Source of the DNA: an uncultured Chloroflexota bacterium
GTDB lineage: Bacteria > Chloroflexota > Dehalococcoidia > CAUJGQ01
DNA: 64,000 bases
Direction of reading: 5' to 3'
NCBI GenBank assembly: GCA_937879875.1
Contig: CALFMN010000231.1
Span: 1 to 64,000, forward strand
Positions 1,447-33,408 of this stretch are shown in pieces. The position numbers and the translations under genes were made by a program. The number at the start of each line of letters is the position of its first letter. Within the stretch, counting starts at the first letter, position 1. The notes beneath the pieces were generated by a model, which searched no databases, was not told where the DNA came from, and saw only the letters and a list, made by a program, of their open reading frames with translations.

Positions 1447-1668
1447 GCCCTCACCCCCTCCCCTCTCCCAATCCTGGGCGAGGGGCGAGCCGGCGTGAAG
1501 CGGCCCGAGAGGTCGTCGGGTTACCCGATGCGCCGCCGTAGGCGTTCCGGAACGGCATCTGCCATCACCTGGGAGCGCAACGCCTTCTGGAACGCCCTCC
1601 CAAGGATCGCCCCTCTCCCTCTCCCAGGATTGGGAGAGGGAGAGGGGACGGGGGTGAGGGTGAGGGCC
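1447..1668. mobile_element. MITE-like element family A, copy 1 (left and right ~50 bp TIRs, each with CCCCTCTCCCA-ATCC-TGGGAGAGGGG hairpin)
   Basis: Left end GAGCCCTCACCCCCTCCCCTCTCCCAATCCTGGGCGAGGGGCGAGCC and its inverted partner at 1604-1668; internal ~110 nt. Confidence 0.6.
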
Positions 1669-1672
1669 GCGC

Positions 1673-2890
1673 CTACGACGGCTGCTGGTCGGCGAACAGG
1701 TGCAGGTCGAGATGCACGTGCGAATCGACCGACTGCACCACGGGCACGCTGGGCGGCTGCATGCCGAAGTCCTGCATCTGGAAGTCGGTGCTGACGACGG
1801 CTTCGAGCTTGCCGCCGGCCTCCTGCGCCTGGCCCGTCCAGGTGAGCGTCCTGTCCACGCCGTGGATGTTCATCGTGCCCGTGATCGAGACGTTGACCTG
1901 ATCGCCCTCCTTATAGGAGGTCGGGAAGCCGTCGATGCTCGCGATCGTGAACGTCGCATTGGGGAACTGCGCGACTTGCAGGACGTTCTGCTTGATGAAG
2001 CGATCGCGCGGCGCCGCGTCGCTGGTGAGTGTGCTCAGATCCACGATCAACACCGAGGGCGGGTTCGGCGCCAGCCCCTTGCCGGGCTGCAGGTAGAAGT
2101 TGCCTGTTACCGCGTTGGTCTTGCCGATCGCGTCGCTCGGAGCCGGCAGCCGCGTCAGCTTCTCGTGCACGGTGTACGCGGCCTGCGACTGCGGGTTGAC
2201 GGCAAAGTGCAGCGGGCCGGCCGCTGCCGCGGGCGAGGCGGGGGCGGGCGTTGCCGGCGCGGCGGCGCTGCCGCTTGCCGGATTCTGACCGGATGCGGGC
2301 GCGGCGCCCTGCGCCGGAGCTGCCTGCGTGGCCGCGGGCGGCACGGCCAGCTTCGTCAGCGCGAAATGCACCTTCGGCTCGCGGTCGGCCACGGTGACGG
2401 CGACGCCGACGGCGATCGCGGCGGCGACTGCCACGGGCGCGGCCAGTCGCCACGGCGCCCGCAGTCCGACGATCGCCAGGAAGAGCGCGGCGCCGCCCAG
2501 CGCCACGATCAGCGTGAGTGGAATGGCGAGCGACGGCAGCCGGTTGGCGAGGTCGCGCTCCGGCCCGGCGAAGATCACGCTGCCGAGGACCGCGACCACA
2601 AGCGCCGCGCTCAGCAGCCAGATCGCCGCCCGGCCGCCGCGCCGCGCCAGCGCTCCGTAGAGCAGCCCGCCCAGCAGCCAGAGCACCAGCGCCCCGCCCG
2701 CGATCGTGTAGCCGTTGATCACCGCGCGGTCGGTGACGCCGGCCCAGCGCCGCAACGGCACGCAGATCAGCGTGCCGACGATACCGATCGCGCCGCCCGC
2801 GACGAGGCCCGCGCCGAGCGCCCGCGTGAGGGCATTTTCACGCGGCGTTTGCCACGCGGAAACACGCGTTCGTTCCATCGTTCCCGCCAT
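1673..2890 (-). CDS. membrane-anchored YceI-like (polyisoprenoid-binding) domain protein
   Basis: N-terminal TM helices, Ala/Pro-rich linker, C-terminal YceI-like domain (FPNATFTIASIDG...VSITGTMNIHGV). Confidence 0.7.
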   Translation of the reverse strand: MAGTMERTRVSAWQTPRENALTRALGAGLVAGGAIGIVGTLICVPLRRWAGVTDRAVINGYTIAGGALVLWLLGGLLYGALARRGGRAAIWLLSAALVVAVLGSVIFAGPERDLANRLPSLAIPLTLIVALGGAALFLAIVGLRAPWRLAAPVAVAAAIAVGVAVTVADREPKVHFALTKLAVPPAATQAAPAQGAAPASGQNPASGSAAAPATPAPASPAAAAGPLHFAVNPQSQAAYTVHEKLTRLPAPSDAIGKTNAVTGNFYLQPGKGLAPNPPSVLIVDLSTLTSDAAPRDRFIKQNVLQVAQFPNATFTIASIDGFPTSYKEGDQVNVSITGTMNIHGVDRTLTWTGQAQEAGGKLEAVVSTDFQMQDFGMQPPSVPVVQSVDSHVHLDLHLFADQQPS

Positions 2891-3204
2891 ACCGCCGAAC
2901 CTCCCGACCGTTCCCGAACCGTATCACGCCGCTGGCCGTAGCTGGTTAAAGCCTTGTTACCAAAAGTAAGCGTCACGAATGCGGCGTTGCGTCTCTGTGG
3001 AGATAACGGTGTGCGCGGCTTCTGGGATGCATCCGCCTGTGCATGCGCCCGACCGGCCGACGTAGTTTCTCGGCAGGTGGCACCAGGTCGGCAGCCTCAC
3101 GCCACTGCGCCGGCGGCAATGCGCGCCCGTCGCATGTCGCGCGGCTGCCGTGTTTCAGCGGGTTGGAGGCTAAGCCGGGCCGCGTCGGCGAGCGACGGAC
3201 GGCG

Positions 3205-3663
3205 TCAGCGGCCAGAAGAAGGCGCTGCCGCCGGCGCCGCGGCCAGCCGCTGCATCGCTATCGGCGCGTAGGTACGCACTTCGATCTCGTTCTCGTCCGG
3301 GTCGCGGAAGTAGACGCTGACGCCGTTGCCGTGCGCCCCCCAGCGCCGGGCCGGGCCGGTATAGACGTCGATGCCCTGTCCGCGCAGATGCTCGGCAACG
3401 GGCTCCAGTGTCTCATCCGCGATCACCAGGCAGAAGTGGTTGAGGTTGGTGACACGGCTCTCGCGTTCGACGGAATTTTGCAGTTGCACCAGGTCGATCA
3501 GGGTGTCGGCGCTCAGGCGCACGGAAGGGAAGCCGATCGTGCCGGCGCGCCACTCCTCCAGCCGCTCGATGCCCAGGCCGAGCACGTCGCGGTAGAAGGC
3601 GATGCTGCGCTCGACATCGGCCACGTTGAGTACGATGTGGTCCATTCCCAGTACGGTGAGCAT
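3205..3663 (-). CDS. VOC/glyoxalase family protein
   Basis: HIVLNVADVERSIAFYRDVLG glyoxalase-fold N-terminus; 152 aa. Confidence 0.75.
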   Translation of the reverse strand: MLTVLGMDHIVLNVADVERSIAFYRDVLGLGIERLEEWRAGTIGFPSVRLSADTLIDLVQLQNSVERESRVTNLNHFCLVIADETLEPVAEHLRGQGIDVYTGPARRWGAHGNGVSVYFRDPDENEIEVRTYAPIAMQRLAAAPAAAPSSGR

Positions 3664-3953
3664 AGTCTTCCTCCAGGTCGTTCAGCCGCGCTTGCCGTGC
3701 AGTATAGAACCATAACATCGCTATGCGTTGCACAGCGCCTGATCAGCGACACCAGATCGAGCCGCGTTCTTGTAACAAATTCTTCGCAAGGTCGTATACA
3801 CTGGCTGCATCGAGGCCGCAGCGCATTACAGGTATGCTGTTCAGGCGGCTTTAGACCTGGTTTCAAGACCGGCGGTTAGAATTTATCGAGTGCTCAGGAA
3901 TGGGGCAACGGGCCGGTTTTGAAACCGTCTGTTATTGAGGAACATCTGCGTAT

Positions 3954-4145: not shown

Positions 4146-4229
4146 ACGAGAGCGGGTAGACGCCCGCCGGCCCGGCTGCGATGCTACCCCGCGGCAGGGT
4201 GTGGCCGCCGCCGCGGCGGGAGGGCAGGC

Positions 4230-4892: not shown

Positions 4893-4896
4893 AAGG

Positions 4897-4931: not shown

Positions 4932-5029
4932 GGGAGCCGGCCGCGGGCTCCGGGTTCCGACTCCGGTACGGCGCGCTGCGGGTCGCGGCTGCGCCGCGAG
5001 GGGCGCATGCCATGCGCCCCTACACTCAT

Positions 5030-5084
5030 TCCTCCGCCCTCTATTCCCTGTTCCCTAACCTCTATTCCCTCCGGCTCCCTCCGG
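5030..5084. repeat. heptad-periodic C3N4 repeat (CCTCTAT/TCCCTGT/TCCCTAA...); G3N4 on minus (mRNA) strand spanning stop of enoyl-CoA hydratase
   Basis: cctccgccctctattccctgttccctaacctctattccctccggctccctccgg; stop codon rc at 5062-5064 lies inside it. Confidence 0.6.
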
Positions 5085-5946
5085 CGCGGTAGTCGCCGTA
5101 TGGGCCGTCGCGCCAGGCGAGCGCCTCTTTGAGGCCGCCGCCGCTCTTCATTGAGTCGGCCACCTTCTCCTGCCAGAGATAGCCCTGGCCCGTGAACTGG
5201 TACATCGCGTCGGTATCGGTGGCCGTATGCACGGCGTTGGCGATGCCCATCGCCTCATAGAAGCAGTTGATCGAGCGCTTGATCACCGCCAGCGAGTCGC
5301 CGGTCTGAATGCCGATGCGCTCGGCCCAGCGCAGCGTCGTCGCCTCCAGCTCGTCCGCCGGCACAGCGGCGTTGATCAGGCCGATGCGCGCCGCCTCGCG
5401 CGCGTCGATCGAGTCGCCCGTATACATCAGCTCGTAGGTCTTGCGCATGCCGATCACCAGCGGCAGGATCGCGCAGGTGCGCGAAGTGCCGAGGCCGCGA
5501 ACGCCAGGATGGCCGAAGCGCGCGTCCTCGGCGGCGATCACGATGTCGTGCATCATCGCGAACTCGAGGCCACCCGCGATCGCGTAGCCGTGCACCTGCG
5601 CGATCGTCGGTTTGGCGATGTTGAACAGGTAGAGCTGAAAATCGGAGACGCGCACCATGTTGGTGCGGATCGTGCTCACTGAGCGGCGCTGGTTGTTTTG
5701 CATCGCCGGATACTGGCGGCGCGGGCCGGGTGTCAGGTCGTAGCCGGCGGAGAAGGTGCGGCCGGCGCCGCGCACGACGATCACGCTGACGCCGGGATCG
5801 TCCTCGGCCTCCTCCAGCGCACGGCGGAACTCCTGCAGCAGCTCGAAGCTGAGCGAGTTCATCTTCTCCGGCCGGTTGAGCGTAATCCGCGCGACGCGTT
5901 CGTTCGCGCCGATCTTCTCGTAGGTCAGGTTCTCAAACTCGGGCAT
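5062..5946 (-). CDS. enoyl-CoA hydratase/isomerase (crotonase family)
   Basis: ITLNRPEKMNSLS...SAGYDL crotonase signature; ATG with GGAGG RBS. Confidence 0.85.
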   Translation of the reverse strand: MPEFENLTYEKIGANERVARITLNRPEKMNSLSFELLQEFRRALEEAEDDPGVSVIVVRGAGRTFSAGYDLTPGPRRQYPAMQNNQRRSVSTIRTNMVRVSDFQLYLFNIAKPTIAQVHGYAIAGGLEFAMMHDIVIAAEDARFGHPGVRGLGTSRTCAILPLVIGMRKTYELMYTGDSIDAREAARIGLINAAVPADELEATTLRWAERIGIQTGDSLAVIKRSINCFYEAMGIANAVHTATDTDAMYQFTGQGYLWQEKVADSMKSGGGLKEALAWRDGPYGDYRAGGSRRE

Positions 5947-6021
5947 GGTTGAGCCTCCGGCGCGGGCAGTGGGCAGCAGGCAGTCGGGAGACCGCCCGCG
6001 CCATCGTGCCCGACCCGCGAA

Positions 6022-6708
6022 TTACGGCGAATCGCCGTTCACAGGCGTTGTAGCAGATTCGCGCCGCGACCGCAGCCATCCGCCGACCTCGATGAACGCC
6101 GCGCGGCGCTCGGCGGTAAGCCGGGCGACGCGGCCGCTCGTCGAGGGGACCACGAACACGACGATGCTATCCCAGTCTTCCGGCTGTCGACCCCAGCAGG
6201 CGCGCGGACGTCCCGCGAAGGCGCGAAAAGCCGTGTCGCCCACGAAACAGACGGCGGCCGGCCGAAACAGCCGCAGCCGCGCGGCCAGCGCCGCGCCGCC
6301 CGCGCGCCATTCGGCCGCGGTCACATCGCCCGTGCCGGCGGAAGGTCGCGCGACCACGTCCGTCAGCCCGACGCCGAGGTCGAGCAGGGCCGCATCTTCA
6401 TCCGGACGAAACAGGCGCGGCGTGATGCCTGCTTCGGCTAAAAGCGGCCAGAAGGCGTTGCCCGGCCGCGCGAAGTAGTGCCCGACGGCGGCCGAGAACA
6501 GCCCCGGATTGCAGCCGCAGAGCACGAGGTCGAGGCCGGGCCGCAGGTACGAGGGGAGAGGGTGAAGAGTGAGTGGTGAATGGTGAGTGGGGATAGCCGT
6601 CTGGCGACCACTCGCTGCACAAACGCCGCCAGCGCGATCGCCGCCGTATGGGTTTGCATGGGGCGCCGACGTACGGAATGCCTTCAAAGCACGATCACTC
6701 TTCACCAC
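6022..6708 (-). CDS. mug: G/U mismatch-specific DNA glycosylase (Mug/UDG family 2); start uncertain
   Basis: PGLDLVLCGCNPGLFSAAVGHYFARPGNAFW matches Mug LAPGLRVVFCGINPGLSSA; about 42 aa N-terminal extension read through a heptamer repeat; GTG at 6708 or a later non-canonical start. Confidence 0.65.
   Translation of the reverse strand: MVKSDRALKAFRTSAPHANPYGGDRAGGVCAASGRQTAIPTHHSPLTLHPLPSYLRPGLDLVLCGCNPGLFSAAVGHYFARPGNAFWPLLAEAGITPRLFRPDEDAALLDLGVGLTDVVARPSAGTGDVTAAEWRAGGAALAARLRLFRPAAVCFVGDTAFRAFAGRPRACWGRQPEDWDSIVVFVVPSTSGRVARLTAERRAAFIEVGGWLRSRRESATTPVNGDSP
6555..6592. repeat. heptad-periodic repeat (GGTGAAG/AGTGAGT/GGTGAAT/GGTGAGT) inside/upstream of mug 5' end
   Basis: Direct reading; encodes THHSPLTLHP if translated. 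Confidence 0.55.
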
Positions 6709-6721
6709 TCACCACTCACCA
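6697..6721. repeat. heptad-periodic repeat (TTCACCA/CTCACCA/CTCACCA), inverse orientation of 6555-6592 copy
   Basis: Between the hydratase stop (6722) and the mug GTG start. Confidence 0.55.
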
Positions 6722-7600
6722 CTACGCCCGCGGCTTGCTCTCCGCCGTGCGATAGTCGCGGAACGGGCCGTCGCGCCAGTCGAGCGCGGCCTTGAGGCCC
6801 TTCTCGCGCAGGATCGTGCCGAACATCTTGCCGCTGGGCCGATACGTGCTCAGCGCCTGGATGTCGGCGCCGGCGGCCAGCGCCGTGCGGATGCCCATCA
6901 CCTCGTAGGCGCGGTTGCAGCCGCGCTTCGACATTTGCAGCATGTCGCTTTCGATGTTGGCGATGCGCGCGGCGAAGCGCTCGGTCTCTTCCGCGAGCTG
7001 ATCCGCCGGATAGGCGCGGTTCGCCCAGCCGATGCGCACCGCCTCTTCGCCGCTGATCGAGTCGCCGGTGTAGAGCAGCTCGCGCGCCTTGCGCATCGGC
7101 ATGTGCCAGGGGTGGTAGACCATGTCCACCGTGGTCATCGCGCGCACCGGCGGATAGCCGAGAATCGCGTCTTCGGCGACGAACATCAGGTCGCAGAAGG
7201 TCGCCAGCTCGGTGCCGCCGGCGAGGCAGTAGCCATGCACCTGGGCGATCACAGGCTTGGCCAGCTCCCAGATCTGCCAGTAGCCGGAGAGCAGGTGCTG
7301 CGGCCACTGGCCCTGGCCCGGATGAATCGGACCGACGGCGGGCAGGCCGGAGCGGGTGTCTTGATACTGGCTCACGTCGTCGGTCTGGTTCGCGCCGCCG
7401 AGGTCGTAGCCGGCGGAGAAGGCACGCCCGGAGCCGCGGATGATGGCAACGCGCACGTCGGCGTCGGCTTCTGCGCTCTTCAGCGCGTCGAAGACCTCGG
7501 AGCGCAGCCGGTGTGAGAGCGCGTTCATCTTCTCCGGCCGGTTGAGGGTAATGATCGCCAGCCGGTCCTTCGTTTCGTAGAGGATGTCGCTGTAGCCCAT
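6722..7600 (-). CDS. enoyl-CoA hydratase/isomerase (crotonase family), paralog
   Basis: ITLNRPEKMNALS...SAGYDL; start MGYSDIL at 7600 with AAGGAGG RBS; the track ORF extends further upstream without support. Confidence 0.85.
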   Translation of the reverse strand: MGYSDILYETKDRLAIITLNRPEKMNALSHRLRSEVFDALKSAEADADVRVAIIRGSGRAFSAGYDLGGANQTDDVSQYQDTRSGLPAVGPIHPGQGQWPQHLLSGYWQIWELAKPVIAQVHGYCLAGGTELATFCDLMFVAEDAILGYPPVRAMTTVDMVYHPWHMPMRKARELLYTGDSISGEEAVRIGWANRAYPADQLAEETERFAARIANIESDMLQMSKRGCNRAYEVMGIRTALAAGADIQALSTYRPSGKMFGTILREKGLKAALDWRDGPFRDYRTAESKPRA

Positions 7601-7926
7601 CGCTGCCTCCTTGCTGCCGGATGGGAAGGCACCTTGCCGGCACTGCCGCCCGCCGGCTTGCCGCGCCGGCGGAGCACGTTGCTCGGCCAGCTCTCCGAAG
7701 ACCGGCGCCGTGATGACTGGCTGCCGGCCATGCCCAGTATAGGCACGAAGCGACACTGAGCGCAGACCACCGCATGCCGCGGTTCGGGAATGGCTCTGCG
7801 ATCAGTTGTTCATATCTGCAGATCCGCGCTTGACACGCGTACGTAGAATACCTGCACACGCGGCGCCCGCGCGGCCAGAGGGAAACCGTTGCGGCGGCGG
7901 CGCGCCATGAGCGGGAGGCGGCCGGC

Positions 7927-8861: not shown

Positions 8862-9579
8862 TCCCCGGACCACGCCGCTGCGATGCGGGCGTACTCGAAG
8901 GGTACGGGCAGTTGGTATGAAGACAACAGCGGTGGCGGGCGATCGCGCCGACGCGCTGAGACGCCTCTCAGCGGGCGCGAATCCGCCCAATGGCTCGTGA
9001 ATACCACTAGAGCCGCTGCACCGGCCTGAAATGCGAATAGAGCGTGTCGCGGGGATCGGTGCGGGTACCGGCACGCGGCCAGCGTTGTATCGGCGCCAGG
9101 CGGGCGTACACCCGGCGCCGCGACGCATGACTTGCACGCGAATGGGCCAGCGGTGAGGCAATCGCGTGATGATAACGATTCGGTAACGGCCCCTGCGCCG
9201 CGCGACCGCCATGGGCGATGCTCATACTGCCGGCTGAGCGCAGGCATTCGCCCCGCCGGTGAGCATGAGTCTTGCCACCAGCGGCTGCTCGACTCGCGGC
9301 GCCGTACCGCAGGCTGGCCGCCCTTCCTCCCGCGAACGTCATAGGACGCCGCTCCCCGCGCATCTATGACTGGTGGGAGACGACACGCTGCCGGCGCCCC
9401 CTCGTACGGCGGCTCCCGCCCCTGCCCGGCGCTTCGGCGTCTGGCGGGGGCGGCGCCGTTCTCCGGCGCACCGAGAGGCCGGCAGACGTGCGCTCTCTGC
9501 CCTCGCTGCGAGACCTTACGCGCAGCCAGGCATGGCACGAACGGCTTCCGCGCGGTTCAATGGAAGCGGGAGCAGCGGC

Positions 9580-10092
9580 ATGCGGCGAATCCGGAAGCTG
9601 TTGCGGCGTGGAGTGCTGTTGCGTTGTCCGAGCTGCGGCAAGGCGACGCTGGTGCGCGGCGTGCTGTGCGTGCACCAGCGCTGCCGCGTCTGCGGCCTCG
9701 CCTTCGAGCATGACGAGGGCTTCTTCCTCGGCGCCCTGATCGTGAACTACCTCTTCGCCTTCGTCTTCGGCATCCTGCCGGCGATCGTCGCGGTCGCCGG
9801 GGGCGCTTTGAGCGTGCGCGGTGCGATTCTCGTCGCCTTCGCCGCGGCCCTCTTGTTGCCCGTCGTGTTTTACTGGCACGCGAAGAGCCTGTGGATGGCG
9901 GTCTACTACCTCTTCGTGCCCGACGATCTACGCGCCGCTCGCCTCGAGGCGCTGGCGGCGATCGAGGGCGGACCGGGCACGGGCGAGGCCGCCGGTCCGC
10001 TGAGCGACGCCGAGCGCCAGCGCCGCCAACTCGAAGAGGCGCTGGCCGAACTCGAAGGCGGCAAGCCGGTGTACCGCCGCGGCGGGCGTTGA
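9580..10092 (+). CDS. DUF983 family membrane protein
   Basis: CPSCGK...CRVCG zinc-ribbon-like N-terminus followed by 2 TM helices; start at MRRIRKLL. Confidence 0.6.
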   Translation: MRRIRKLLRRGVLLRCPSCGKATLVRGVLCVHQRCRVCGLAFEHDEGFFLGALIVNYLFAFVFGILPAIVAVAGGALSVRGAILVAFAAALLLPVVFYWHAKSLWMAVYYLFVPDDLRAARLEALAAIEGGPGTGEAAGPLSDAERQRRQLEEALAELEGGKPVYRRGGR

Positions 10093-10256
10093 GGCGTGTG
10101 GCTCTCATACCATCGGATGGGTAGGGGCGCGTGCAACGCGCCTCGCAGCGCGCCGGTTCACCCGACACGCCTTGCCCGCTCAACGCAGGATCGCCCCTGT
10201 CGCCCGTTTCCACGATGTATTCAGATGCATCGGAGGAAAGGACGGGGTCAGGCGCC

Positions 10257-10320
10257 AGAGCGCAGCGCAACCGTCGGCGACTTTGGCCAGAGCGCAGCGC
10301 AACCGTCGGCGACTTTGAAT
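10257..10320. promoter_or_regulatory. tandem direct repeat 2 x AGAGCGCAGCGCAACCGTCGGCGACTTTG(AAT), about 100 nt upstream of amidohydrolase
   Basis: Exact tandem copies at 10257-10286 and 10287-10320; third copy at 11472-11501. Confidence 0.5.
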
Positions 10321-10421
10321 GAGGGCCGCCTCCCGCCTGATTGACCGCGCGCCGCCCGCCGGGGTTAACTACAGCCGTGGCGCGCCTTGCGGCGTTGCCT
10401 CTCAGACTCTCCCGGAGGCGT

Positions 10422-11429
10422 GCCGTGCCGGTCATCGACGTGCACAACCACTACACCACGGTGCCGGCGGCGCTGAACGTCTACCGCGCCGGCCAGATCA
10501 GCGGCGGCAATCAGCCCAGACCGTTCAAATCCAGCAGCATCAGCGACGAGGCGATCGTCGCCTCCGTCAAAGATAAGCAGATCGCGCACATGGCGATGAA
10601 AGGGATCGACCGCCTGATCTTCTCGCCGCAGGCCGGCGCGATGGGCCACCAGTTCGGCGGCGAAAAAGTCAGCCGCTACTGGACGCAGGCCTGCAACGAC
10701 ATGATTCACCGCGTCTGCACGCTCTTCCCGGACAAGCTCTCGCCCTCCTGCCAGTTGCCGCAGTCGCCGGGCGTGCCGCCCGAGCGCTGGCTCGACGAGC
10801 TGGAGTTCCGCGTCAACGAGCAGGGCTTCGTCGCCTGCAACGTCAACCCGGACATCTCCGGCGGTGCGCCGCCGTTCACACCGTCCGTTGCGGACGAATG
10901 GTGGTATCCCCTCTACGACAAGTTGCAGGAGCTGGATGTTCCCGGCCACATCCACGTCAGCGCCACGCTCAACCCCGCCTTTCATATGAACGGCTCGCAT
11001 TACATCGCCTGGCATCACACCGCGGCCTTCGAGATCATGTGGGCGGCCGAACGGATCTTCCACGACTTCCCGCGGCTGAAGCTGGTGATGTCGCACGGCG
11101 GCGGCGCGATGCTTTTGCAGCACAATCGCATCCGCTCGCTGTTCGAGGCGGCGGGCAGAGACTACGATTCGGCGGTCAAAAAGGTTACCTGGGACATGGC
11201 GGTCTACGAGCAGGAGACGATGGCGACGATGGTGCGCCTCGCCGGCGCCGACAGCCTGATGTTCGCCACCGAGATGTGGGGCACGGCGAACGTGATCGAC
11301 CCCAAGACGGGCAAATACTTCGACGACACGCTCGGCATGGTCAAGGCGCTCGGCCTCAGCGTGGAGGACGAGTACAAGCTGCTGGAGGGCAACGCCCGCC
11401 GGCTCTACAGCCGCGCGACGTTCGACTGA
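10422..11429 (+). CDS. amidohydrolase-2 family metal-dependent hydrolase (ACMSD-like TIM barrel)
   Basis: VIDVHNHY metal-binding motif at N-terminus; GTG start with GGAGG RBS. Confidence 0.8.
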   Translation, partial: AVPVIDVHNHYTTVPAALNVYRAGQISGGNQPRPFKSSSISDEAIVASVKDKQIAHMAMKGIDRLIFSPQAGAMGHQFGGEKVSRYWTQACNDMIHRVCTLFPDKLSPSCQLPQSPGVPPERWLDELEFRVNEQGFVACNVNPDISGGAPPFTPSVADEWWYPLYDKLQELDVPGHIHVSATLNPAFHMNGSHYIAWHHTAAFEIMWAAERIFHDFPRLKLVMSHGGGAMLLQHNRIRSLFEAAGRDYDSAVKKVTWDMAVYEQETMATMVRLAGADSLMFATEMWGTANVIDPKTGKYFDDTLGMVKALGLSVEDEYKLLEGNARRLYSRATFD

Positions 11430-11471
11430 CCGGCGATCAATGACGCCGCCCCGCATTGTAGGGGCGCCCAT

Positions 11472-11501
11472 AGCGCAGCGCAACCGTCGGAGACTTTGAA
11501 T
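11472..11501. promoter_or_regulatory. third copy of AGCGCAGCGCAACCGTCGGAGACTTTGAAT motif, about 90 nt upstream of aldolase
   Basis: Near-identical to the tandem copies at 10257-10320; similar spacing to the downstream start codon. Confidence 0.5.
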
Positions 11502-13863: not shown

Positions 13864-13879
13864 GCGCGGCGCGGCTATC

Positions 13880-13965
13880 GGCCCTCACCCCCGTCCCCTC
13901 TCCCAATCCTGGGCGAGGGGCGATCCGGCGTGTAGTGTTCCGTGGCCGGCGCGATTAACCGGATG
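13880..13965. repeat. MITE-like family A, solo left-end copy (copy 3)
   Basis: GGCCCTCACCCCCGTCCCCTCTCCCAATCCTGGGCGAGGGGCGATCC + GATTAACCGG tail; between convergent MFS and GT2 genes. Confidence 0.55.
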
Positions 13966-13996
13966 CCGGTGCGTGAAGCGGCCGGCCAGGCGAGCA

Positions 13997-15238: not shown

Positions 15239-15290
15239 CCTCCGCCCTCCGCCCTCTATTTCCTATTCCCTAACCCCTATTCCCTATCGG
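15236..15290. repeat. heptad-periodic C3N4 repeat in 5' UTR of GT2 gene (G-rich on mRNA strand; includes the SD)
   Basis: accctccgccctccgccctctatttcctattccctaacccctattccctatc. Confidence 0.6.
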
Positions 15291-19254: not shown

Positions 19255-19297
19255 CTGCGCGGCTCCCCGCGATCAGTATCGCTCGGCGCGGGCGTTC

Positions 19298-19511
19298 GGC
19301 CCTCACCCCCGCCCCCTCTCCCAATCCTGGGCGAGGGGCGATCCCGCGTGGAGCGACCCGCAGCGGCACCGGGTTAACCGTTGTGATCACGCTGTACCTC
19401 ACCCAACAGCAAGGTTAACCGTACCGGCCCCGGAACTTCCTCCCCGGGATCGCCCCTCTCCTTCTCCCAGGATTGGGAGAAGGAGAGGGGACGGGGGTGA
19501 GGATAAGGGCC
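19298..19511. mobile_element. MITE-like element family A, copy 4 (both TIRs intact)
   Basis: Left TIR 19298-19345, inverted right TIR 19445-19511, internal GGGTTAACCG motifs. Confidence 0.6.
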
Positions 19512-19523
19512 GACCGCCGCCGG

Positions 19524-28043: not shown

Positions 28044-28065
28044 ACGGCTCTTTGGGATTTGCGGC

Positions 28066-29325: not shown

Positions 29326-29334
29326 CCCGCCCTC

Positions 29335-29524
29335 TATCCCCCGTCCCCCCTTTCTCCCAATCGTTCACATCGCGCACAGCGCGATCTGGAATGGAGAAAG
29401 GGGCGATCGTGCGCAGCACGACTCGGACGCTGCCGGGTTAACCGTTTGGTGCTCGGAACGCTTCAGGCTGGATCGCCCCTCGCCCAGGATTGGGAGAGGG
29501 GACGGGGGTGAGGGCGAGGGCCGG
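29335..29524. mobile_element. MITE-like element family A, copy 5 (left TIR with loop insertion, right TIR intact)
   Basis: Between convergent moeA and hydrolase genes; GGGTTAACCGTTTGGTGCTCGGAACGCT internal motif. Confidence 0.55.
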
Positions 29525-29532
29525 CGACGCTG

Positions 29533-30516
29533 CTACTGCACGGCTCGGAGCGGCATGCGCGCGTCGAGAAAATCGGTGACGTGATTGAGCCATTCGCTGT
29601 CGTTGCGTTTGATCGTGTCGCCGTGCTTCGCGCCGGGAACGAGCCAGAGGTCGCTGGCCGGATTGGCGGACGCCGCACGGAGCTGTGTGCTGTTCTGCGG
29701 CAGCACGTAGTCGTCGGCGGTGCCGTGGATGAAGAGAATCGAGATGCTCGGCGCCCTGCGCACGGCGTCGATCGGCTTGACGGACGGCAGATCGACGCCG
29801 TCCATGAGCCGGATGGCCGTGCTGACGGCGAAGTCCGGCTTTAGCCAGGCCAGCTCCGGGCGTTGCTTGCGAATCTGCCGGGTAATCACAGGCCAGGCTT
29901 CAGCGTAGGCGCTGTCTGAGACCATCGCGCCGATACCTTGCAGTTGTGGCGCCGCCATCAGCATCGCCGCCGCGCCGTACGAGACGCCGATCATGGCGAT
30001 ACGTCCTTGCGCATAGCCCTTGCTCAGCACGAAATGGAAGGCGCCGCGCACGTCGTTCTGCTCGTGCAGGCCGTAGCTCTGCACGCCACCGCCGGAGGCG
30101 CCGTGGGCGCGCAGGTCGAACATCAGCACGGCGTAGCCACGATCGTGCAGGCGGTGAGCGATCTGATCGAAGCCGTAGTCCGAATCGGTGCGGTTCTGCC
30201 CGCGGCCGTGCAGGAGGATGAGCGCTCTACCGCCGATCTCGGTCGGGCCGGGGAACCACCAGCCGCGCAGGGTGAGGTGGTTGCCCTGGCTGGGGAACGT
30301 GACGTCGTCGTACTGCGGCGCGATCGAGCGCGGATCGAGGGTGACAGGCTTGCGCGGCTGGTGCACGATCTGCGTGTCGCCGTAGACGCCAAGGCCGGCG
30401 TAGAAGATGAGGACGACGAGCATGCCGGCGGCGGCGATCGCCAGTGCCAGCCGCCATCGTGGGCGCGAAGCCTCGTTCGCAGCCGAATTGTTCAACGCGG
30501 CGCTGGCGGAGTCCAT
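29533..30516 (-). CDS. alpha/beta hydrolase
   Basis: HGRGQNR...GVSYGAA nucleophile elbow (GxSxG); N-terminal TM; start MDSASAAL. Confidence 0.75.
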   Translation of the reverse strand: MDSASAALNNSAANEASRPRWRLALAIAAAGMLVVLIFYAGLGVYGDTQIVHQPRKPVTLDPRSIAPQYDDVTFPSQGNHLTLRGWWFPGPTEIGGRALILLHGRGQNRTDSDYGFDQIAHRLHDRGYAVLMFDLRAHGASGGGVQSYGLHEQNDVRGAFHFVLSKGYAQGRIAMIGVSYGAAAMLMAAPQLQGIGAMVSDSAYAEAWPVITRQIRKQRPELAWLKPDFAVSTAIRLMDGVDLPSVKPIDAVRRAPSISILFIHGTADDYVLPQNSTQLRAASANPASDLWLVPGAKHGDTIKRNDSEWLNHVTDFLDARMPLRAVQ

Positions 30517-30539
30517 GCGGCAGACCCTCCGCCGCGATC

Positions 30540-31517
30540 CTACGCCGAACGGGCTGCCCCGGCACAGTTTGACCGCCCCGGCGCCTCCACGAAGCAGCCC
30601 TCCAGGAACAGGCCGACGCGATCCATCCATTCGTCCGGCGCGGTGGCGTAGGTCAGCGCGTGCTCGGCCTCGGGCACCTGCCAGAGGTCACTGGCCGGAT
30701 GCGAGGAAACCTGACGCAGCCGCGCGCTGTGCTCTGGCGGAACATAGCTGTCTACCGCTCCGTGGATGAAGAGGATCGGGCATCCCGGCGCTTGCCCGAC
30801 TGCCGCAAGCGGTCGCGCCGCCGCGAGGTTCACATGGAATAGCGCGCGTGCGGCGATGCGGATACCTGGTCCTGGCCGCAGCTGTGCCAACCGGCGGCTC
30901 TGCCGCGGAATCTCGGCCGCGATCACGGGCCATATCTCTGCGTAGGCGCTGTCCGCGACCACGCCGGCAATGCGCGGCATCTCCGGCAACGCCATCAGCG
31001 CCGCCGCCGCGCCGTAGGAGCTGCCGATCAGCGCCACGGCCTCGTCCTGAAAGCCGCGTTCGCGCAGGAAATCCAGCGCACCGAGCACGTCCGCGCGCTC
31101 GCGCACACCATAGCTCAGCCGCGAGCGAGCAGACTCCCCGTGGCCTCGCAAATCGAACATCAGCACCGCGTAGCCGCGGCGCAGCAAGGCGCGGGCGATG
31201 GCGTCGCTCTGCCAGTTGCGGTCGTAACGGTTGTGGCCGCGCCCGTGGATCAGCACCAGCGCCCGGCCTGCCCCGCCGTTGGCAAACCACCAGCCACGCA
31301 GCGCCAGCCCGTCGCCGCGCGCCGGGAAGGTCACATCTTCCCAGTTACCCGCGATCGACTCCGGCGCCAGGCCCAGCGGCCGGTGTCGCAGCCGCGTGGC
31401 GCGGTGAGCGCCGTAGAGTGCAATGGCGGGATAGGCCAAGGCCGCCAGAGCGAGCCCTGCGAAAACCAATGGGCGGCGCAGGATAGGAGCGGCTGCTGAG
31501 CGTCGGCGCTTGCTCAT
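30540..31517 (-). CDS. alpha/beta hydrolase (tandem paralog)
   Basis: Colinear with the 29533-30516 product (LIHGRGHNR...GSSYGAA). Confidence 0.75.
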   Translation of the reverse strand: MSKRRRSAAAPILRRPLVFAGLALAALAYPAIALYGAHRATRLRHRPLGLAPESIAGNWEDVTFPARGDGLALRGWWFANGGAGRALVLIHGRGHNRYDRNWQSDAIARALLRRGYAVLMFDLRGHGESARSRLSYGVRERADVLGALDFLRERGFQDEAVALIGSSYGAAAALMALPEMPRIAGVVADSAYAEIWPVIAAEIPRQSRRLAQLRPGPGIRIAARALFHVNLAAARPLAAVGQAPGCPILFIHGAVDSYVPPEHSARLRQVSSHPASDLWQVPEAEHALTYATAPDEWMDRVGLFLEGCFVEAPGRSNCAGAARSA

Positions 31518-31610
31518 CGCCGGCCTGCCGCGGTTGCAGTATGCCGAGCTGCAGGGTCAACAGCCCGCCAGGTATGAATCGGGCCGCGCCGGGCATTCCG
31601 CATGAGGCGC

Positions 31611-33173
31611 CTACGCCCGCGCGGCGGCGGCGCGCCGCTTCGTCCCGCCGTTGCGCCGCGCCGCGCTCTGCTGCTCGGCGGCAATGCTGAGCACGGTGTG
31701 CACGAGCGTGCGCACGGGCATGCCGCTCGCGCCCTTCGTGATCCAGCCCTTGTCGTGCTCGTAGATGTCCACGCCGGCCATATCGATGTGCGCCCAGGGC
31801 GTCTTGTCCACAAACTCGCGCAGGAACATCGCCGCCGTGATCGAGCCGGCCTTGCGCCCGCCCGTGTTCTTGATGTCGGCCACGTCGCTGTCGATCTGTG
31901 TCCGATACTCCTCAAACATCGGCAGTTGCCAGACCTTCTCACCGCCCTCTTTGCCGGCGGCGATCACGCGGTCGATCAGCGCCTGGTCGTTGCCCATGAT
32001 ACCCATCGCCACATCGCCCAGCGCCGTCGTGATCGCGCCGGTCAGCGTCGCCACGTCGATCAGCGGCGACAGCTCGAGCCGGCGCGCGTAGGAGAGGCCG
32101 TCCGCCAGCACGAGCCGGCCCTCGGCGTCCGTGTTCAGCACCTCGATCGTCGTGCCGTTCATGGCGCGCAGCACGTCGCCCGGCTTGATCGCGTTGCCGC
32201 CGGGCATGTTCTCCGTGGCGGGCACGATGCCGGTGACGTTGACCGTTGGCTTCAGCCGGGCGATGGCCGAGAGCGCCGCGATCACCGCCGCGCCACCGGA
32301 CATATCGCCCTTCATCTCGTGCATGTTGGCCGCCGGCTTGATCGAAATGCCGCCCGTGTCGAAGGTGATGCCCTTGCCGATCAGCCCGACGCCGTGCTCG
32401 CTGCTCGGGTCGCCGCGGTAGTGCAGCACGATGAACGCCGGCGGCTGGGCGCTGCCCTTCGCCACGCCCAGCAATGCGCCCATACCCAGCTCGACCATCT
32501 GCTCGGCGTCGAGCACCTCACAGCGCAGATCGGTCTCGTCGGCGGCGGCACGGGCGCGGGCGGCAAGCTCGGTCGGCGTCATGTAGTTGCTCGGCTCGTT
32601 GGCCAGGTCGCGGGCGAAGTTGGTCGCCTCGGCGAGGATCGTGCCGGTGGCGACGCCGCGCTCAAGTGTCGCTGTCAGCTTGCCATCCTGCTCGACGATC
32701 GTTAGCGCTTCAAGCTCGCGGCGGCCTTCTTCGGGCTTCTGATGACGGGTGAAGCGGTAGAGTCCGAGCAACGTGCCCTCGGCGATCGCCTGCGCCGACG
32801 CCTCGGCGTCGAGCCCGCCGGCGCCGGCGCCATGTGCGACCGTTGCCGCCGGGCTGAAGCCGTTTTTGCGCAGGAAGCGGGCGACGTTGGCCGCGGTGTC
32901 GCGTACGCGGTCGGCCGACAGGTCGGCGGCCTTGCCCAGGCCGGCGACGACGACGCGGCCGGCAGGCAGCTTGCCCAGCGTGTGCACGACGGTGATTTCG
33001 CCGCGCGTGCCGCGGATCTCGCCATCGGCGATCAGCCGGGAGAGCGCGCCGTCCAGCGCCCGATCGGCCGCACCGGTCGCGCCGTCCGGTTTGGCGACGC
33101 CTTCCAGCAGGTTGAGGACGATCGCCTTACCGCCAAAACCGAGAATATCGCCCTGCTCGATGCGGATCTCCAC
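31611..33173 (-). CDS. pepA: leucyl aminopeptidase (M17)
   Basis: NTDAEGRLVLADGL M17 signature; GTG start with GGAGGG RBS; the longer track ORF runs through a repeat. Confidence 0.85.
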   Translation of the reverse strand: MEIRIEQGDILGFGGKAIVLNLLEGVAKPDGATGAADRALDGALSRLIADGEIRGTRGEITVVHTLGKLPAGRVVVAGLGKAADLSADRVRDTAANVARFLRKNGFSPAATVAHGAGAGGLDAEASAQAIAEGTLLGLYRFTRHQKPEEGRRELEALTIVEQDGKLTATLERGVATGTILAEATNFARDLANEPSNYMTPTELAARARAAADETDLRCEVLDAEQMVELGMGALLGVAKGSAQPPAFIVLHYRGDPSSEHGVGLIGKGITFDTGGISIKPAANMHEMKGDMSGGAAVIAALSAIARLKPTVNVTGIVPATENMPGGNAIKPGDVLRAMNGTTIEVLNTDAEGRLVLADGLSYARRLELSPLIDVATLTGAITTALGDVAMGIMGNDQALIDRVIAAGKEGGEKVWQLPMFEEYRTQIDSDVADIKNTGGRKAGSITAAMFLREFVDKTPWAHIDMAGVDIYEHDKGWITKGASGMPVRTLVHTVLSIAAEQQSAARRNGGTKRRAAAARA

Positions 33174-33269
33174 GGCGCGTCCCTCCTGCCTAACTGGCTC
33201 GCTCGCGCATCGAGCATAGCGAGCCATGCCTGACGACGGCAATCGTTGGCGCGCGTCAGGCCGGCGGTC

Positions 33270-33408
33270 GGCCCTCACCCCCGTCCCCTCTCCCAATCCT
33301 GGGAGAGGGGCGATCCCGCGTCGGGCGATCCGATCGGTTTGCGGTTAACCGTTTGCTGCTCGGAACGCTCAGTGCAGGATCGTCTCCTTCCCTCCAGAAT
33401 TGGGGATC
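33270..33408. repeat. MITE-like family A, copy 6 (intact left TIR, decayed right TIR)
   Basis: GGCCCTCACCCCCGTCCCCTCTCCCAATCCTGGGAGAGGGGCGATCCCG ... GCGGTTAACCGTTTGCTGCTCGGAACGCTCAG ... degenerate inverted end. Confidence 0.55.

What the first reader, a model, noticed from the sequence alone, without database searches (positions are those of the whole stretch)
1447..33408. Family of six MITE-like elements with ~50-bp hairpin-containing terminal inverted repeats (family A)
Copies lie at 1447-1668, 13880-13965, 19298-19511, 29335-29524 and 33270-33408. Each shares the end GGCCCTCACCCCCGTCCCCTCTCCCAATCCTGGGMGAGGGGCGATCCCG, which is itself a stem-loop (CCCCTCTCCCA/ATCC/TGGGAGAGGGG), plus internal GGTTAACCGTTTGSTGCTCGGAACGCT. 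Three copies have the same end inverted at the other side, giving 190-220 bp elements with no coding capacity. The 13880-13965 copy is a solo left end, and the 33270-33408 copy has a decayed right end. The 29335-29524 copy carries a 30-nt insertion exactly in the hairpin loop. All are intergenic and mostly between convergent or tandem gene ends. Six copies in 64 kb is a high density and implies a large genome-wide family that may act as terminators or recombination hotspots.
Basis: seen in the sequence. Interest (0 to 1): 0.65.

Follow-up and report, generated by a model that had tools for sequence, protein, structure and literature searches.

The report
BoxC-like triplex-motif palindromic repeat family
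Six copies of a roughly 175-bp non-coding palindromic repeat lie between genes on this uncultured Chloroflexota contig; their "terminal inverted repeats" are the already described G/C-rich intrastrand-triplex motif (BoxC/PIT/TM of E. coli and cyanobacteria), and they lack the insertion footprints of a classical MITE.

Summary
The repeats are real. The 26-nt hairpin core occurs 6 times where 0 are expected, and a profile of the half-unit finds 10 half-units at six intergenic loci: the five listed plus a degenerate one at about 10165-10330. Each "TIR" is a three-block module, a C-rich block, a 3-4 nt spacer and a hairpin. This is the reverse complement of the published BoxC/PIT/TM intrastrand-triplex motif (Holder et al. 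2015, PMC4666352). Variant arms change all three blocks together and keep the purine-motif triad rule (10/10, 12/13, 16/17). A full element has two non-identical arms in inverted orientation around an asymmetric core centred on GGTTAACC. The family is abundant in related metagenome contigs (69 doublets and 19 singlets in 627 kb). The hairpin 25-mer recurs in four phyla. Elements are absent from orthologous spacers of relatives, and sub-variants recur at many loci, so they are copied. I found no target-site duplication, no sharp termini, no one-sided target motif, no transposase or RAYT, no Rfam hit and no covariation in the interior. Copies favour gene 3' ends, abut stop codons and show no orientation bias. 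Verdict: a new member of a known but mechanistically unexplained repeat class. It resembles a REPIN more than a MITE. Interest is modest.

The parts
1447..1669 (.). Element 1, a doublet. The left type-A triplex arm is 1447-1485 (third block 1448-1458, hairpin 1460-1485). The right arm is 1610-1668, with a 17-bp hairpin at 1610-1647 and a doubled third block GGGGGTGAGGGTGAGGGCC at 1650-1668. It lies between the stop of gene 1673-2890(-) and the start of gene 81-1406(-).
10165..10330 (-). It is a degenerate solo half-unit read on the minus strand: GGCCCTCATT, then two 32-nt units, then CCCCGTCCTTTCC, a hairpin with a nested loop hairpin, GGGGCGATCC and CGGGTGAACC. Its third block is split by the tandem 32-nt repeat at 10254-10317. 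It lies between genes 9373-10092(+) and 10341-11429(+).
   Evidence: D14; E=0.0015
13873..13960 (+). Element 2, a solo half-unit. It has a type-A triplex arm at 13881-13920 plus the interior up to GATTAACC at 13953-13960. It lies between convergent genes 12538-13863(+) (MFS) and 13997-15238(-) (glycosyltransferase).
19291..19518 (.). Element 3, a doublet. The left type-A arm is 19299-19338. There are two GGTTAACC centres, at 19372-19379 and 19413-19420. The right arm is 19453-19511, with a 17-bp hairpin CCCCTCTCCTTCTCCCA/TGGGAGAAGGAGAGGGG and a third block at 19493-19511. It lies between the Band_7 stop (19524) and the Pkinase start (19254). The orthologous spacer in relatives is 55-99 nt and carries no call-13 25-mer match.
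29326..29529 (.). Element 4, a doublet that fills the whole spacer between convergent moeA (stop at 29325) and a hydrolase gene (stop at 29533). The left type-C arm is 29329-29403 and has a roughly 30-nt nested hairpin in its loop. The centre GGTTAACC is at 29437-29444. The right type-A arm is 29475-29522.
33263..33444 (.). Element 5, a doublet. The left type-A arm is 33271-33310. The centre GGTTAACC is at 33344-33351. The right arm is 33380-33441, type B interrupted by ATGACACGAT. It lies in the divergent spacer between pepA-like M17 (start 33173, minus strand) and Rrf2 (start 33775, plus strand).

Best explanation
**What it is (shown).** Each arm is a three-block module. Read on the G-rich strand it is C-stem, loop, G-stem, spacer ACG(G), then a G-rich third block. 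An example is CCCCTC(T/G)CCCA-GGAT-TGGGAGAGGGG-ACG-GGGGGTGAGGGC. This is the BoxC/PIT/TM intrastrand-triplex motif class described in E. coli, other Proteobacteria and cyanobacteria. A full element of about 175 nt joins two non-identical arms in inverted orientation, usually one type-A arm plus a type-B or type-C arm. The arms flank an asymmetric core of about 75 nt: CGATCC ... GCGTTCCG ... CGGTTAACCCGACGCC ... GGATCG. The elements are non-coding and non-autonomous.

**How it most likely works (inferred).** The elements are copied as units. Sub-variants recur at many loci, and copies are present or absent between relatives. They settle in 3' intergenic spacers, mostly directly after stop codons, by a process that leaves no target-site duplication. 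I think the most likely process is REPIN-like. A trans-acting, structure-specific enzyme, HUH/RAYT-like or other, would recognise the folded arm (hairpin plus third block) on single-stranded DNA. The coordinated variation of all three blocks argues that the triplex-capable fold, and not only the hairpin, is what is recognised or selected.

**Likely consequences.** Non-B DNA at gene ends and local instability, with no direction-dependent function.

**Confidence by part.** Assignment to the TM/BoxC class is about 0.85. Copied mobile or selfish DNA without target-site duplication is about 0.65. A REPIN-like single-strand mechanism is about 0.35.
For: **Class assignment.**
- The published pattern is CCCTCNCCC-N3-6-GGGNGAGGG-N3-GGGNGAGGG, and the 23 E. 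coli copies are tabulated. The five type-A arms (one in each listed copy) match a version relaxed only in the second loop.
- The window arms carry the same G.A stem mismatch (CCCTCGCCC opposite GGGAGAGGG) as the E. coli "mm" types.
- E. coli also has inverted pairs in intergenic DNA. The hrpB-mrcB pair starts 12 nt after the hrpB stop codon.

**Triad rule holds in variant arms.**
- Type A: 10/11.
- TCTCCTTCTCCCA with GCCCTCATCCTCTC: 12/13.
- 17-nt stems with lengthened third blocks: 15-16/17.
- One arm: 15/15.
- Across the 23 non-A variants, the mirror register scores 85%, the direct register 70%, and pairing with type-A third blocks 73%.

**Abundance.** 157 half-units, 69 doublets (mostly 174-191 nt) and 19 singlets in 627 kb from 4 metagenomes plus the window.

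**Copy descent.**
- The loop-insert variant sits at 9 loci with unrelated flanks.
- There are two main subfamilies, A/C with 18 members and B/A with 17.

**Gain or loss.** L102 versus L129 and L131 versus L137 differ in presence. The Band_7-Pkinase spacer is 55-99 nt in relatives and 269 nt here.

**No insertion footprint.** No target-site duplication and no one-sided target motif.

**Location.**
- 29 convergent, 38 tandem and 7 divergent, against a background of 80, 248 and 74. My chi-square on these counts is 18.4, p about 1e-4.
- 55 of 96 ends that face a gene 3' end lie within -7 to +19 nt of the stop codon.
- No orientation bias in tandem contexts, 14 versus 15.

**Fold.** Single-strand folding gives z = -4.9 and -7.9.

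**Wider distribution.** The exact 25-mer occurs in at least 94 stretches from Chloroflexota, Gemmatimonadota, Armatimonadota and Cyanobacteria. The sequence beyond the module is lineage-specific. Inverted doublets also occur in those other genomes.
Against: - The strict TM_ECO pattern is not matched. There are 5 nt between the 9-nt G blocks, or equivalently 10-nt stems with an ACG(G) spacer.
- Triplex formation is inferred from sequence rules only. The G-rich strand also fits a G-quadruplex motif.
- The blocks are nearly self-symmetric, which weakens the contrast between mirror and direct registers for type A (10 versus 9 of 11).
- No mobilising enzyme was found. There is no RAYT-like ORF in 1.4 Mb, but that sample is small and RAYTs are single-copy.
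- The REP hallmark 5' GTAG/GTGG is absent.
- Empty and filled sites are too diverged to show exact junctions.
- Holder et al. found no transposase association in E. coli. Earlier work they cite found no in vivo polymerase block, promoter activity or terminator activity.
- Copy counts are inflated because the loci were chosen for carrying the motif. Gene calls used for context come from a crude GC3 filter.
Confidence: 0.6

Rival explanations
1. Classical MITE. On this reading the element is a deletion derivative of a DDE-transposase insertion sequence (IS630/Tc1, IS5 or similar). It would be mobilised in trans through its roughly 50-bp terminal inverted repeats by cut-and-paste transposition, generating target-site duplications.
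For: - The elements are small (170-240 bp), non-coding and have inverted ends.
- They are abundant and dispersed.
- They differ in presence between relatives.
- Solo ends exist.
Against: - No direct repeat of 3-9 nt flanks the elements at any offset from 0 to 25 nt in 37 doublets with both ends anchored. The best signals fall inside the weakly conserved outer consensus.
- The outermost 11 nt are the least conserved part (0.3-0.9 bits, against about 2 bits for the inner 47 nt). In transposase-bound TIRs, from general knowledge, the tips are usually the best conserved.
- The two arms are normally different sequence types.
- No transposase lies in the annotated 2.5-39 kb of the window. No pair of arms enclosing an ORF was seen in 1.4 Mb.
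- The same motif has no transposase association in E. coli.
Confidence: 0.1
2. Host-selected 3'-end element. On this reading the doublets serve as bidirectional transcription terminators without a U-tract ("I-shaped") or as 3' mRNA-stabilising hairpins in this high-GC lineage. Their abundance would reflect selection for that role, whatever spreads them.
For: - They are enriched between convergent genes and depleted from divergent spacers.
- 57% of ends that face a gene 3' end lie within -7 to +19 nt of a stop codon.
- Element 4 fills a whole convergent spacer.
- The hairpins are very stable, -22 to -43 kcal/mol as RNA.
- The symmetric design fits the lack of orientation bias.
Against: - No T/U run follows any arm, as read directly.
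- The third block has no role in a terminator hairpin, yet it co-varies with the stem.
- Seven of 74 elements, including element 5, sit in divergent promoter spacers.
- E. coli PIT elements showed no terminator or promoter activity.
- Relatives manage with spacers of 55-99 nt that lack the element.
- A 3'-end bias is also what purifying selection produces for any neutral insertion.
Confidence: 0.15
3. No dedicated enzyme. On this reading the copies spread and turn over through host recombination, gene conversion or template switching. Non-B DNA (triplex, cruciform or G4) at the arms would provoke these events. That makes it a structure-driven instability hotspot and not a transposon.
For: - Holder et al. 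link TM loci to elevated local rearrangement in E. coli and found no mobility genes.
- Element boundaries here are fuzzy, and flanks at filled and empty sites are rearranged and not cleanly interrupted.
- Hairpin loops are occasionally flipped, in 2 of 104 arms here and about 13% of cross-phylum hits. Template switching within a palindrome would produce this.
- Other small repeats are nested inside arms.
Against: - Recombination alone does not readily place about 175-nt units with conserved internal polarity into dozens of unrelated spacers.
- Discrete subfamilies with shared idiosyncratic inserts at 9 unlinked loci look like replication of master copies.
Confidence: 0.12
4. Conserved structured non-coding RNA gene.
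For: The predicted fold is strong and several interior motifs are conserved.
Against: - No Rfam family reaches its gathering score anywhere in the window.
- In 16 oriented elements the RNAalifold covariation term is -0.33 kcal/mol, with 1 compensatory pair among 44. The interior is variable and unpaired.
- Orientation relative to neighbouring genes is random.
- There are tens of copies per 600 kb.
- According to Holder et al., a purine-motif triplex cannot form in RNA.
Confidence: 0.03

Closest known systems
BoxC / PIT element / TM_ECO G/C-rich intrastrand-triplex motif (Bachellier et al. 1990s; Hoyne/Maher 2000; Holder et al. 2015, PMC4666352)
   Same: - The three blocks have the same sequence logic: CCCTC(T/G)CCC, a loop, GGGAGAGGG, a spacer, GGGTGAGGG.
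- It has the same optional G.A stem mismatch.
- It is strictly intergenic and multi-copy.
- It is often found as inverted pairs about 100 bp apart.
- It shows no strand bias.
- No transposase is known for it.
- Presence is patchy among relatives.
   Different: - The second spacer is one or two nt longer, or equivalently the stems are 10 triads long, so the strict published regex fails.
- Arms of 12-17 triads and with loop inserts exist.
- Pairs are embedded in a conserved asymmetric unit of about 175 nt with a GGTTAACC centre and GATC-containing junctions.
- The third blocks face outward, whereas in the E. coli hrpB-mrcB pair they face inward.
- The host is an uncultured Chloroflexota lineage. 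The strict motif was reported from Proteobacteria.
REPIN / REP-RAYT systems (Bertels & Rainey 2011, PMC3116915; PMC3337134)
   Same: - Two palindromic units lie in inverted orientation around a spacer, and singlets also occur.
- They are extragenic and biased towards gene 3' ends.
- They leave no target-site duplication.
- There are tens to hundreds of copies.
- Conserved arms flank a variable spacer.
   Different: - No RAYT gene was found in the sequence available.
- There is no 5' GTAG/GTGG tetranucleotide.
- Each unit has an extra third block.
- The element is about twice as long as typical REPINs.
- The two arms are heterotypic.
Bacterial MITEs (for example Correia/NEMIS, ERIC, or Nezha of cyanobacteria; from general knowledge)
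   Same: The size, the inverted ends, the lack of coding capacity, the intergenic dispersal and the ability to fold into a long hairpin all match.
   Different: There are no target-site duplications, no sharply conserved tips and no cognate insertion sequence.

Membership tests
BoxC/PIT/TM (G/C-rich intrastrand-triplex motif) | The strict TM_ECO regex: CCCTCNCCC-N3-6-GGGNGAGGG-N3-GGGNGAGGG. | tested here: not met
   There are 0 matches in the window. Five type-A arms match once the second spacer may be 2-7 nt. The window arms have GGGAGAGGG-GACGG-GGGTGAGGG, which is equivalent to 10-nt stems with an ACG(G) spacer.
BoxC/PIT/TM (G/C-rich intrastrand-triplex motif) | The general ITxF definition: three consecutive blocks of 6-15 nt, loops of 1-6 nt, at most one mismatch, obeying purine-motif triads (G*G-C, A*A-T, T*A-T). 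| tested here: met
   Type A scores 10/11 and type B 12/13. Long-stem arms score 15-16/17, and one arm scores 15/15. The spacers are 2-4 nt.
BoxC/PIT/TM (G/C-rich intrastrand-triplex motif) | Always intergenic, multi-copy, without strand bias, and sometimes in inverted ("palindromic") pairs. | tested here: met
   All six window copies are intergenic. There are 69 doublets and 19 singlets. Orientation in tandem contexts is 14 versus 15. The E. coli comparison is.
BoxC/PIT/TM (G/C-rich intrastrand-triplex motif) | [quoted passage not shown] | not testable with these tools
   Only Watson-Crick folding can be computed here. The published demonstration is for E. coli oligonucleotides.
MITE | Target-site duplications flank the element. 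| tested here: not met
   No direct repeat of 3-9 nt exceeds shuffled expectation at offsets 0-25 on either side in 37 doubly anchored doublets. An earlier test on 13 doublets gave the same result.
MITE | Terminal inverted repeats with conserved tips that match a cognate transposase-encoding insertion sequence. | tested here: not met
   Inverted arms exist, but conservation falls from about 2 bits to 0.3-0.9 bits over the outer 11 nt. The arms are usually of different types. No transposase lies in the annotated 2.5-39 kb, and no ORF bounded by arms occurs in the held loci. The whole genome was not available.
REPIN/REP-RAYT | Two REP units lie in inverted orientation around a spacer, with singlets as remnants. 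Location is extragenic. | tested here: met
   The definition is taken from the abstract of PMC3337134.
REPIN/REP-RAYT | A single-copy RAYT (HUH Y1 transposase) gene is present in the genome and flanked by the repeats. | tested here: inconclusive
   phmmer --max with E. coli RayT against 12,353 six-frame ORFs from 1.4 Mb gave a best E-value of 5. A crude motif scan returned one long candidate ORF that was not checked further. Only a fraction of any one genome was sampled.
REPIN/REP-RAYT | A conserved GTAG/GTGG tetranucleotide lies at the 5' foot of the REP hairpin (from general knowledge of group 2/3 RAYT-associated REPs). | tested here: not met
   The arm consensus is CGCGGCnnTCG-GCCCTCACCCCCGT-CCCCTCTCCCA..., which has no GTAG/GTGG.
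Intrinsic (Rho-independent) terminator | A G+C-rich hairpin followed directly by a T/U run. | tested here: not met
   Read directly from the sequence, the hairpins are followed by CGATCC on one side or ACGGGGGTGAGGG on the other.
Rfam structured RNA | A match to a curated covariance model, or covariation that supports a structure. | tested here: not met
   No family reaches its gathering score. The covariation term is -0.33, with 1 compensatory pair among 44.

The most novel reading that the evidence does not exclude
TM doublets may be a trans-phylum class of selfish DNA. Its recognition determinant would be a triplex-capable three-block fold and not a linear sequence or a simple hairpin, and an unidentified structure-specific enzyme would copy it. 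This Chloroflexota family has at least three arm types that change the stem, its complement and the third block in concert. It also has propagated sub-variants. Together these provide the natural "compensatory mutation" series that the E. coli data lacked. It could make the roughly 30-year-old question of what BoxC/PIT elements are directly testable.
Probability: 0.2. Interest if true: 0.7.

Novelty: new member of a known kind. Interest (0 to 1): 0.35.

Why it matters
BoxC/PIT/TM motifs have been known since the 1990s. They are widespread and form triplex DNA in vitro, yet their origin, means of spread and function remain unexplained.

This family adds four things:
- It places the motif in uncultured Chloroflexota, at roughly one element per 13-20 kb. 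The identical hairpin 25-mer also occurs in Gemmatimonadota, Armatimonadota and Cyanobacteria.
- It shows coordinated variation of all three blocks across arm types. This argues that the triplex-type geometry itself is maintained.
- It shows copy descent without target-site duplication and with a tight association to stop codons.
- It gives a concrete data set for phylogenetic profiling to find the responsible enzyme.

For genome annotation the practical point is that these are not MITEs of a known insertion-sequence family and not genes. The C-rich arms generate spurious proline- and serine-rich ORFs.

Tried and rejected
**Searches that found nothing.**
- Rfam at gathering thresholds and tRNA/tmRNA scans of the window gave nothing.
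- The strict TM_ECO regex gave 0 hits. It was replaced by a relaxed spacer and an explicit triad test.
- Target-site duplication tests were run first on 13 doublets and then on 37 doubly anchored ones, over all offsets and lengths. There was no signal.
- A one-sided target motif, as in IS200/IS605, was sought after orienting 56 elements by core polarity. None was found.
- BLAST of whole elements against plasmids and phages gave only a 40-nt motif hit on a Stanieria plasmid and no phage hit.
- Literature searches for the motif strings and for BoxC or "intrastrand triplex" gave only Holder et al. 2015 as relevant. The term "BoxC" mostly returned unrelated "BoxCar" papers.

**Tests that were inconclusive.**
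- Exact junctions at empty versus filled sites could not be read. The two polymorphic pairs among metagenome loci, and the Band_7-Pkinase spacers of relatives, are too diverged to give nucleotide-level boundaries.
- The RAYT search was negative, using a crude HUH/Y motif scan and then phmmer with E. coli RayT. The sample is only 1.4 Mb from many genomes.
- One contig look-up failed because the assumed start codon did not reproduce a recorded protein. As a result, 39-64 kb of the window has no Pfam annotation here.

**Reading rejected.** Interior RNA structure was rejected by RNAalifold on 16 oriented elements, which showed no covariation.

Full report

Yes. The hairpin core CCCCTCTCCCAATCCTGGGMGAGGGG occurs six times in the window, at 1460+, 1616-, 13895+, 19313+, 29476- and 33285+. 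None is expected from 100 dinucleotide-preserving shuffles. I read all five listed loci, and they are as described.

Nine half-units align over about 90 nt to this consensus:

(CGCGGCnnTCG)GCCCTCACCCCCGTCCCCTCTCCCAATCCTGGG(A/C)GAGGGGCGATCC...GCGTTCCG...CGGTTAACC

The generally shared interior feature is the central palindrome GGTTAACC.

A profile HMM of the half-unit recovers all nine. At a permissive threshold it finds a tenth at 10243-10165 on the minus strand (E=0.0015). Alignment shows this to be a degenerate solo half-unit spanning about 10165-10330. Its third block is interrupted by two tandem 32-nt units.

The window has 68% G+C. By third-position GC and by the Pfam-annotated gene calls of the source contig, all copies are intergenic.

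**2. Where the window comes from**

It is part of a 137-kb metagenome contig, ENA ERZ27245795 k141_445711. The same sequence is present in JGI metagenome 3300007982, contig Ga0102924_1000440.

The nearest named homologues of its Band_7 protein come from Dehalococcoidia/Chloroflexota MAGs, at only 70-78% amino-acid identity. The host is therefore an uncultured Chloroflexota lineage.

**3. What the "TIR" is**

Read on the G-rich strand, an arm is CCCCTC(T/G)CCCA-GGAT-TGGGAGAGGGG-ACG-GGGGGTGAGGGC. That is a hairpin followed by a G-rich block that mirrors the purine stem.

A full-text search for the block strings led to Holder et al. 2015 (PMC4666352). This is the G/C-rich intrastrand triplex motif, first noted in E. 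coli as BoxC and then as the PIT element. The paper names it TM_ECO and gives the pattern CCCTCNCCC-N3-6-GGGNGAGGG-N3-GGGNGAGGG.

The paper reports the following:
- E. coli K-12 has 23 copies, all intergenic and without strand bias. Several form inverted pairs.
- There are 3610 copies in 262 proteobacterial genomes.
- Related G/C-rich motifs are abundant in cyanobacteria.
- NMR shows a triplex in vitro.
- The loci are associated with local genome variability.
- No transposase, integrase, phage or plasmid association was found.
- Earlier work cited there found no promoter or terminator activity.

I read one E. coli pair directly, in the hrpB-mrcB spacer. It begins 12 nt after the hrpB stop codon.

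The window arms fail the strict regex only because the second spacer is longer. There are 5 nt between the 9-nt blocks, which is equivalent to 10-nt stems with an ACG(G) spacer. They even share the G.A stem mismatch (CCCTCGCCC opposite GGGAGAGGG) of the E. coli "mm" types.

**4. The three blocks vary together**

Among 104 arms from the window and related loci there are 48 distinct combinations of third block and stem. I scored the purine-motif triad rule: identity in mirror register, with A or T allowed opposite the stem's T.

| Arm | Triads obeying the rule |
|---|---|
| Type A | 10/11 |
| Type B, TCTCCTTCTCCCA with GCCCTCATCCTCTC | 12/13 |
| CCCCTTTCTCCCA with GCCCTCATTCCCC | 12/13 |
| 17-nt stems of elements 1 and 3, with third blocks lengthened to match | 15-16/17 |
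| One arm | 15/15 |

For the 23 non-A variants, the mirror register scores 85%. The direct register scores 70%, and pairing with type-A third blocks scores 73%.

For type A the blocks are almost self-symmetric, so that contrast is weak. The type B, type C and long-stem arms carry the argument.

This supports the view that the triplex-type geometry is maintained, and not just a hairpin. It does not show that a triplex forms in vivo. The G-rich strand also fits a G-quadruplex motif. Holder et al. excluded a quadruplex for the E. coli oligonucleotides by NMR.

**5. Anatomy of the whole element**

A scan of metagenome contigs with a family-specific 25-mer returned 56 stretches from four JGI metagenomes. 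In these plus the window (627 kb) the profile finds 157 half-units. They form 69 inverted doublets, mostly 174-191 nt long, and 19 singlets.

Information content per position is as follows:

| Region | Information content |
|---|---|
| GCCCTCACC... to ...GGGGCGATCC (47 nt) | about 2 bits |
| Outer 11 nt (CGCGGCnnTCG) | 0.3-0.9 bits |
| Beyond the outer 11 nt | none |
| Interior | low |
| CGGTTAACC centre | about 1 bit |

Elements have an internal polarity. An "alpha" side reads ...GCGTTCCGA-N7-(A/G)CGGTTAACC and a "beta" side reads CCGACGCC...GGATCG. Of 67 distinct doublets, 56 can be oriented by this.

The arms are usually heterotypic. The main combinations are A on alpha with C on beta (18 elements) and B on alpha with A on beta (17). 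E. coli pairs are likewise mixed A/B types.

As single strands the elements fold far better than shuffles, with z = -4.9 and -7.9. The interior shows no covariation. The RNAalifold covariation term is -0.33 kcal/mol, with 1 compensatory pair among 44. No Rfam family matches.

**6. Are they copied, and how?**

Three lines of evidence point to copy descent and turnover.

- *Shared idiosyncratic variants occur at unlinked loci.* The roughly 30-nt nested hairpin in the loop of element 4's left arm recurs at 9 loci with unrelated flanks. It defines a subfamily and is not a private insertion.
- *Presence differs between relatives.* L102 3561-3744 is absent from L129, and L131 6884-7106 is absent from L137. 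Flank identity is 83-93%.
- *The orthologous spacer in relatives is short.* The Band_7-Pkinase spacer is 55 and 99 nt in two syntenic relatives. It is 269 nt here with element 3.

The junctions are too diverged to be read at nucleotide level.

Several results count against a classical MITE.
- No direct repeat of 3-9 nt flanks the elements at any combination of offsets from 0 to 25 nt in 37 doubly anchored doublets.
- No one-sided target motif appears after orienting the elements.
- The tips are the least conserved part.
- The two arms differ in type.
- No transposase is annotated in window positions 2.5-39 kb.
- No ORF bounded by arms was seen.
- A search for a RAYT with E. coli RayT against all six-frame ORFs of 1.4 Mb of held loci was negative, with a best E-value of 5 (crude motif scan). 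This sample is far too small to exclude a single-copy gene.

**7. Genomic context**

I used crude GC3-based gene calls on all loci. Of 74 classified elements, 29 lie between convergent genes, 38 between tandem genes and 7 between divergent genes. The figures for all spacers are 80, 248 and 74. My chi-square on these counts is 18.4, p about 1e-4.

Of 96 element ends that face a gene 3' end, 55 lie within -7 to +19 nt of the stop codon. Element 4 occupies the whole spacer between moeA and a convergent hydrolase gene.

In tandem contexts the alpha-to-beta polarity runs with the genes 14 times and against them 15 times. This argues against any direction-dependent function. No arm is followed by a T run.

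The 3'-end bias fits both purifying selection on insertions and a symmetric 3'-end role. The data cannot separate the two.

**8. Distribution beyond this lineage**

The hosts are:
- Chloroflexota: Thermomicrobiales, Sphaerobacter, Anaerolineae
- Gemmatimonadota: Longimicrobiaceae
- Armatimonadota
- Cyanobacteria: Petrachloros, Lusitaniella, Lyngbya, Limnospira

What is shared across phyla is only the module GCCCTCACCCC-(N2-4)-hairpin. In Gemmatimonadota a 25-nt insert replaces the short spacer. The sequence beyond the module is lineage-specific.

Three-block motifs and inverted doublets are common in the Chloroflexota and cyanobacterial loci.

The hairpin loop has a preferred orientation relative to the third block. 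Here AATCC occurs 85 times and GGATT twice. About 13% of the cross-phylum hits are flipped.

The search required that exact loop, so this says nothing about how many other loop variants exist. Whether the shared 25-mer reflects horizontal transfer or constraint remains open.

**9. Verdict**

The MITE interpretation is only partly supported. These are small, copied, inverted-repeat, non-coding elements. They lack the defining insertion signatures of a MITE, and their ends are the known BoxC/PIT/TM triplex motif.

I file them as a new, lineage-specific composite member of that known class. I commit to a REPIN-like, structure-recognising, single-strand mechanism without target-site duplication as the most likely mode of spread, at about 0.35.

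The rivals are:
- enzyme-free instability driven by non-B DNA
- a host 3'-end function
- a DDE-type MITE
- a structured RNA gene, which is close to excluded

Interest is modest, because the motif class and its puzzle are already published. The added value lies in three things: the coordinated three-block variation, the evidence for copy descent without target-site duplication, and the wide phyletic reach. Together these make the old question more tractable.

Noticed in passing
window 10254-10317 (two exact tandem copies) and 11467-11498; also L098, L102, L105, L106, L117, L119, L122, L126, L128, L133, L148, L151: There is a second small repeat of about 32 nt, GCCAGAGCGCAGCGCAACCGTCGGCGACTTTG (reverse complement ...GTCTCCGACGGTTGCGCTGCGCTCTGGC). 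It has 18 copies in 627 kb. About half lie nested inside triplex-motif arms, between or within the third block and the hairpin, sometimes as tandem dimers. About five others sit in a different conserved context, CCTAACCCC-hairpin-...-unit-CCCACGGGGGAAGGGTT. It may be a separate mini-element that targets the arms, or part of an unrecognised RNA.
   Followed up: partly
window 5014-5070 and 15229-15285; L131 about 6830-6860: There is a third repeat family made of pyrimidine-rich heptad-like units, ...CCGCCCTCTATTCCCTGTTCCCTAACCTCTATTCCCT. It lies at gene ends. In L131 its complement, GGGAACAGGGAACAGGGAATAGGGAAG, lies directly beside a triplex-motif doublet. It is another polypurine/polypyrimidine tract with non-B DNA potential.
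   Followed up: no
L001-L094 (genome-contig hits): The identical 25-nt hairpin, including its loop, is amplified in genomes of four phyla. The neighbouring sequence is lineage-specific. Gemmatimonadota copies carry a conserved insert of about 25 nt (GGCTCGCTTGAGGCTCGCCA) between the third block and the hairpin. Horizontal transfer and constraint were not distinguished.
   Followed up: partly
window 29533-31517; 5062-7756; 34266-35243 with 37000-37938: There are diverged paralogue pairs at about 71-74% DNA identity. They are two adjacent Peptidase_S15/alpha-beta-hydrolase genes, two enoyl-CoA hydratase genes, and two PALP (cysteine-synthase-like) genes.
   Followed up: no
window about 33775-38420: The gene order is Rrf2 regulator, PALP enzyme, ThiS-ThiF fusion, ThiS, PALP enzyme, then a JAB/MPN protease. 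This looks like a sulfur-carrier-protein (CysO/ThiS-type) cysteine or thiocarboxylate biosynthesis cluster. Element 5 sits in its divergent promoter region.
   Followed up: no
all arms, e.g. window 13921-13926, 19339-19344, 29470-29475: Every arm is joined to the interior by a highly conserved CGATCC/GGATCG (1.4-1.9 bits), so each doublet carries two symmetric GATC sites. The E. coli hrpB-mrcB BoxC pair also has GATC next to one hairpin (GGGGACCGATCG). The relevance, for example to methylation or mismatch repair, is unknown.
   Followed up: no
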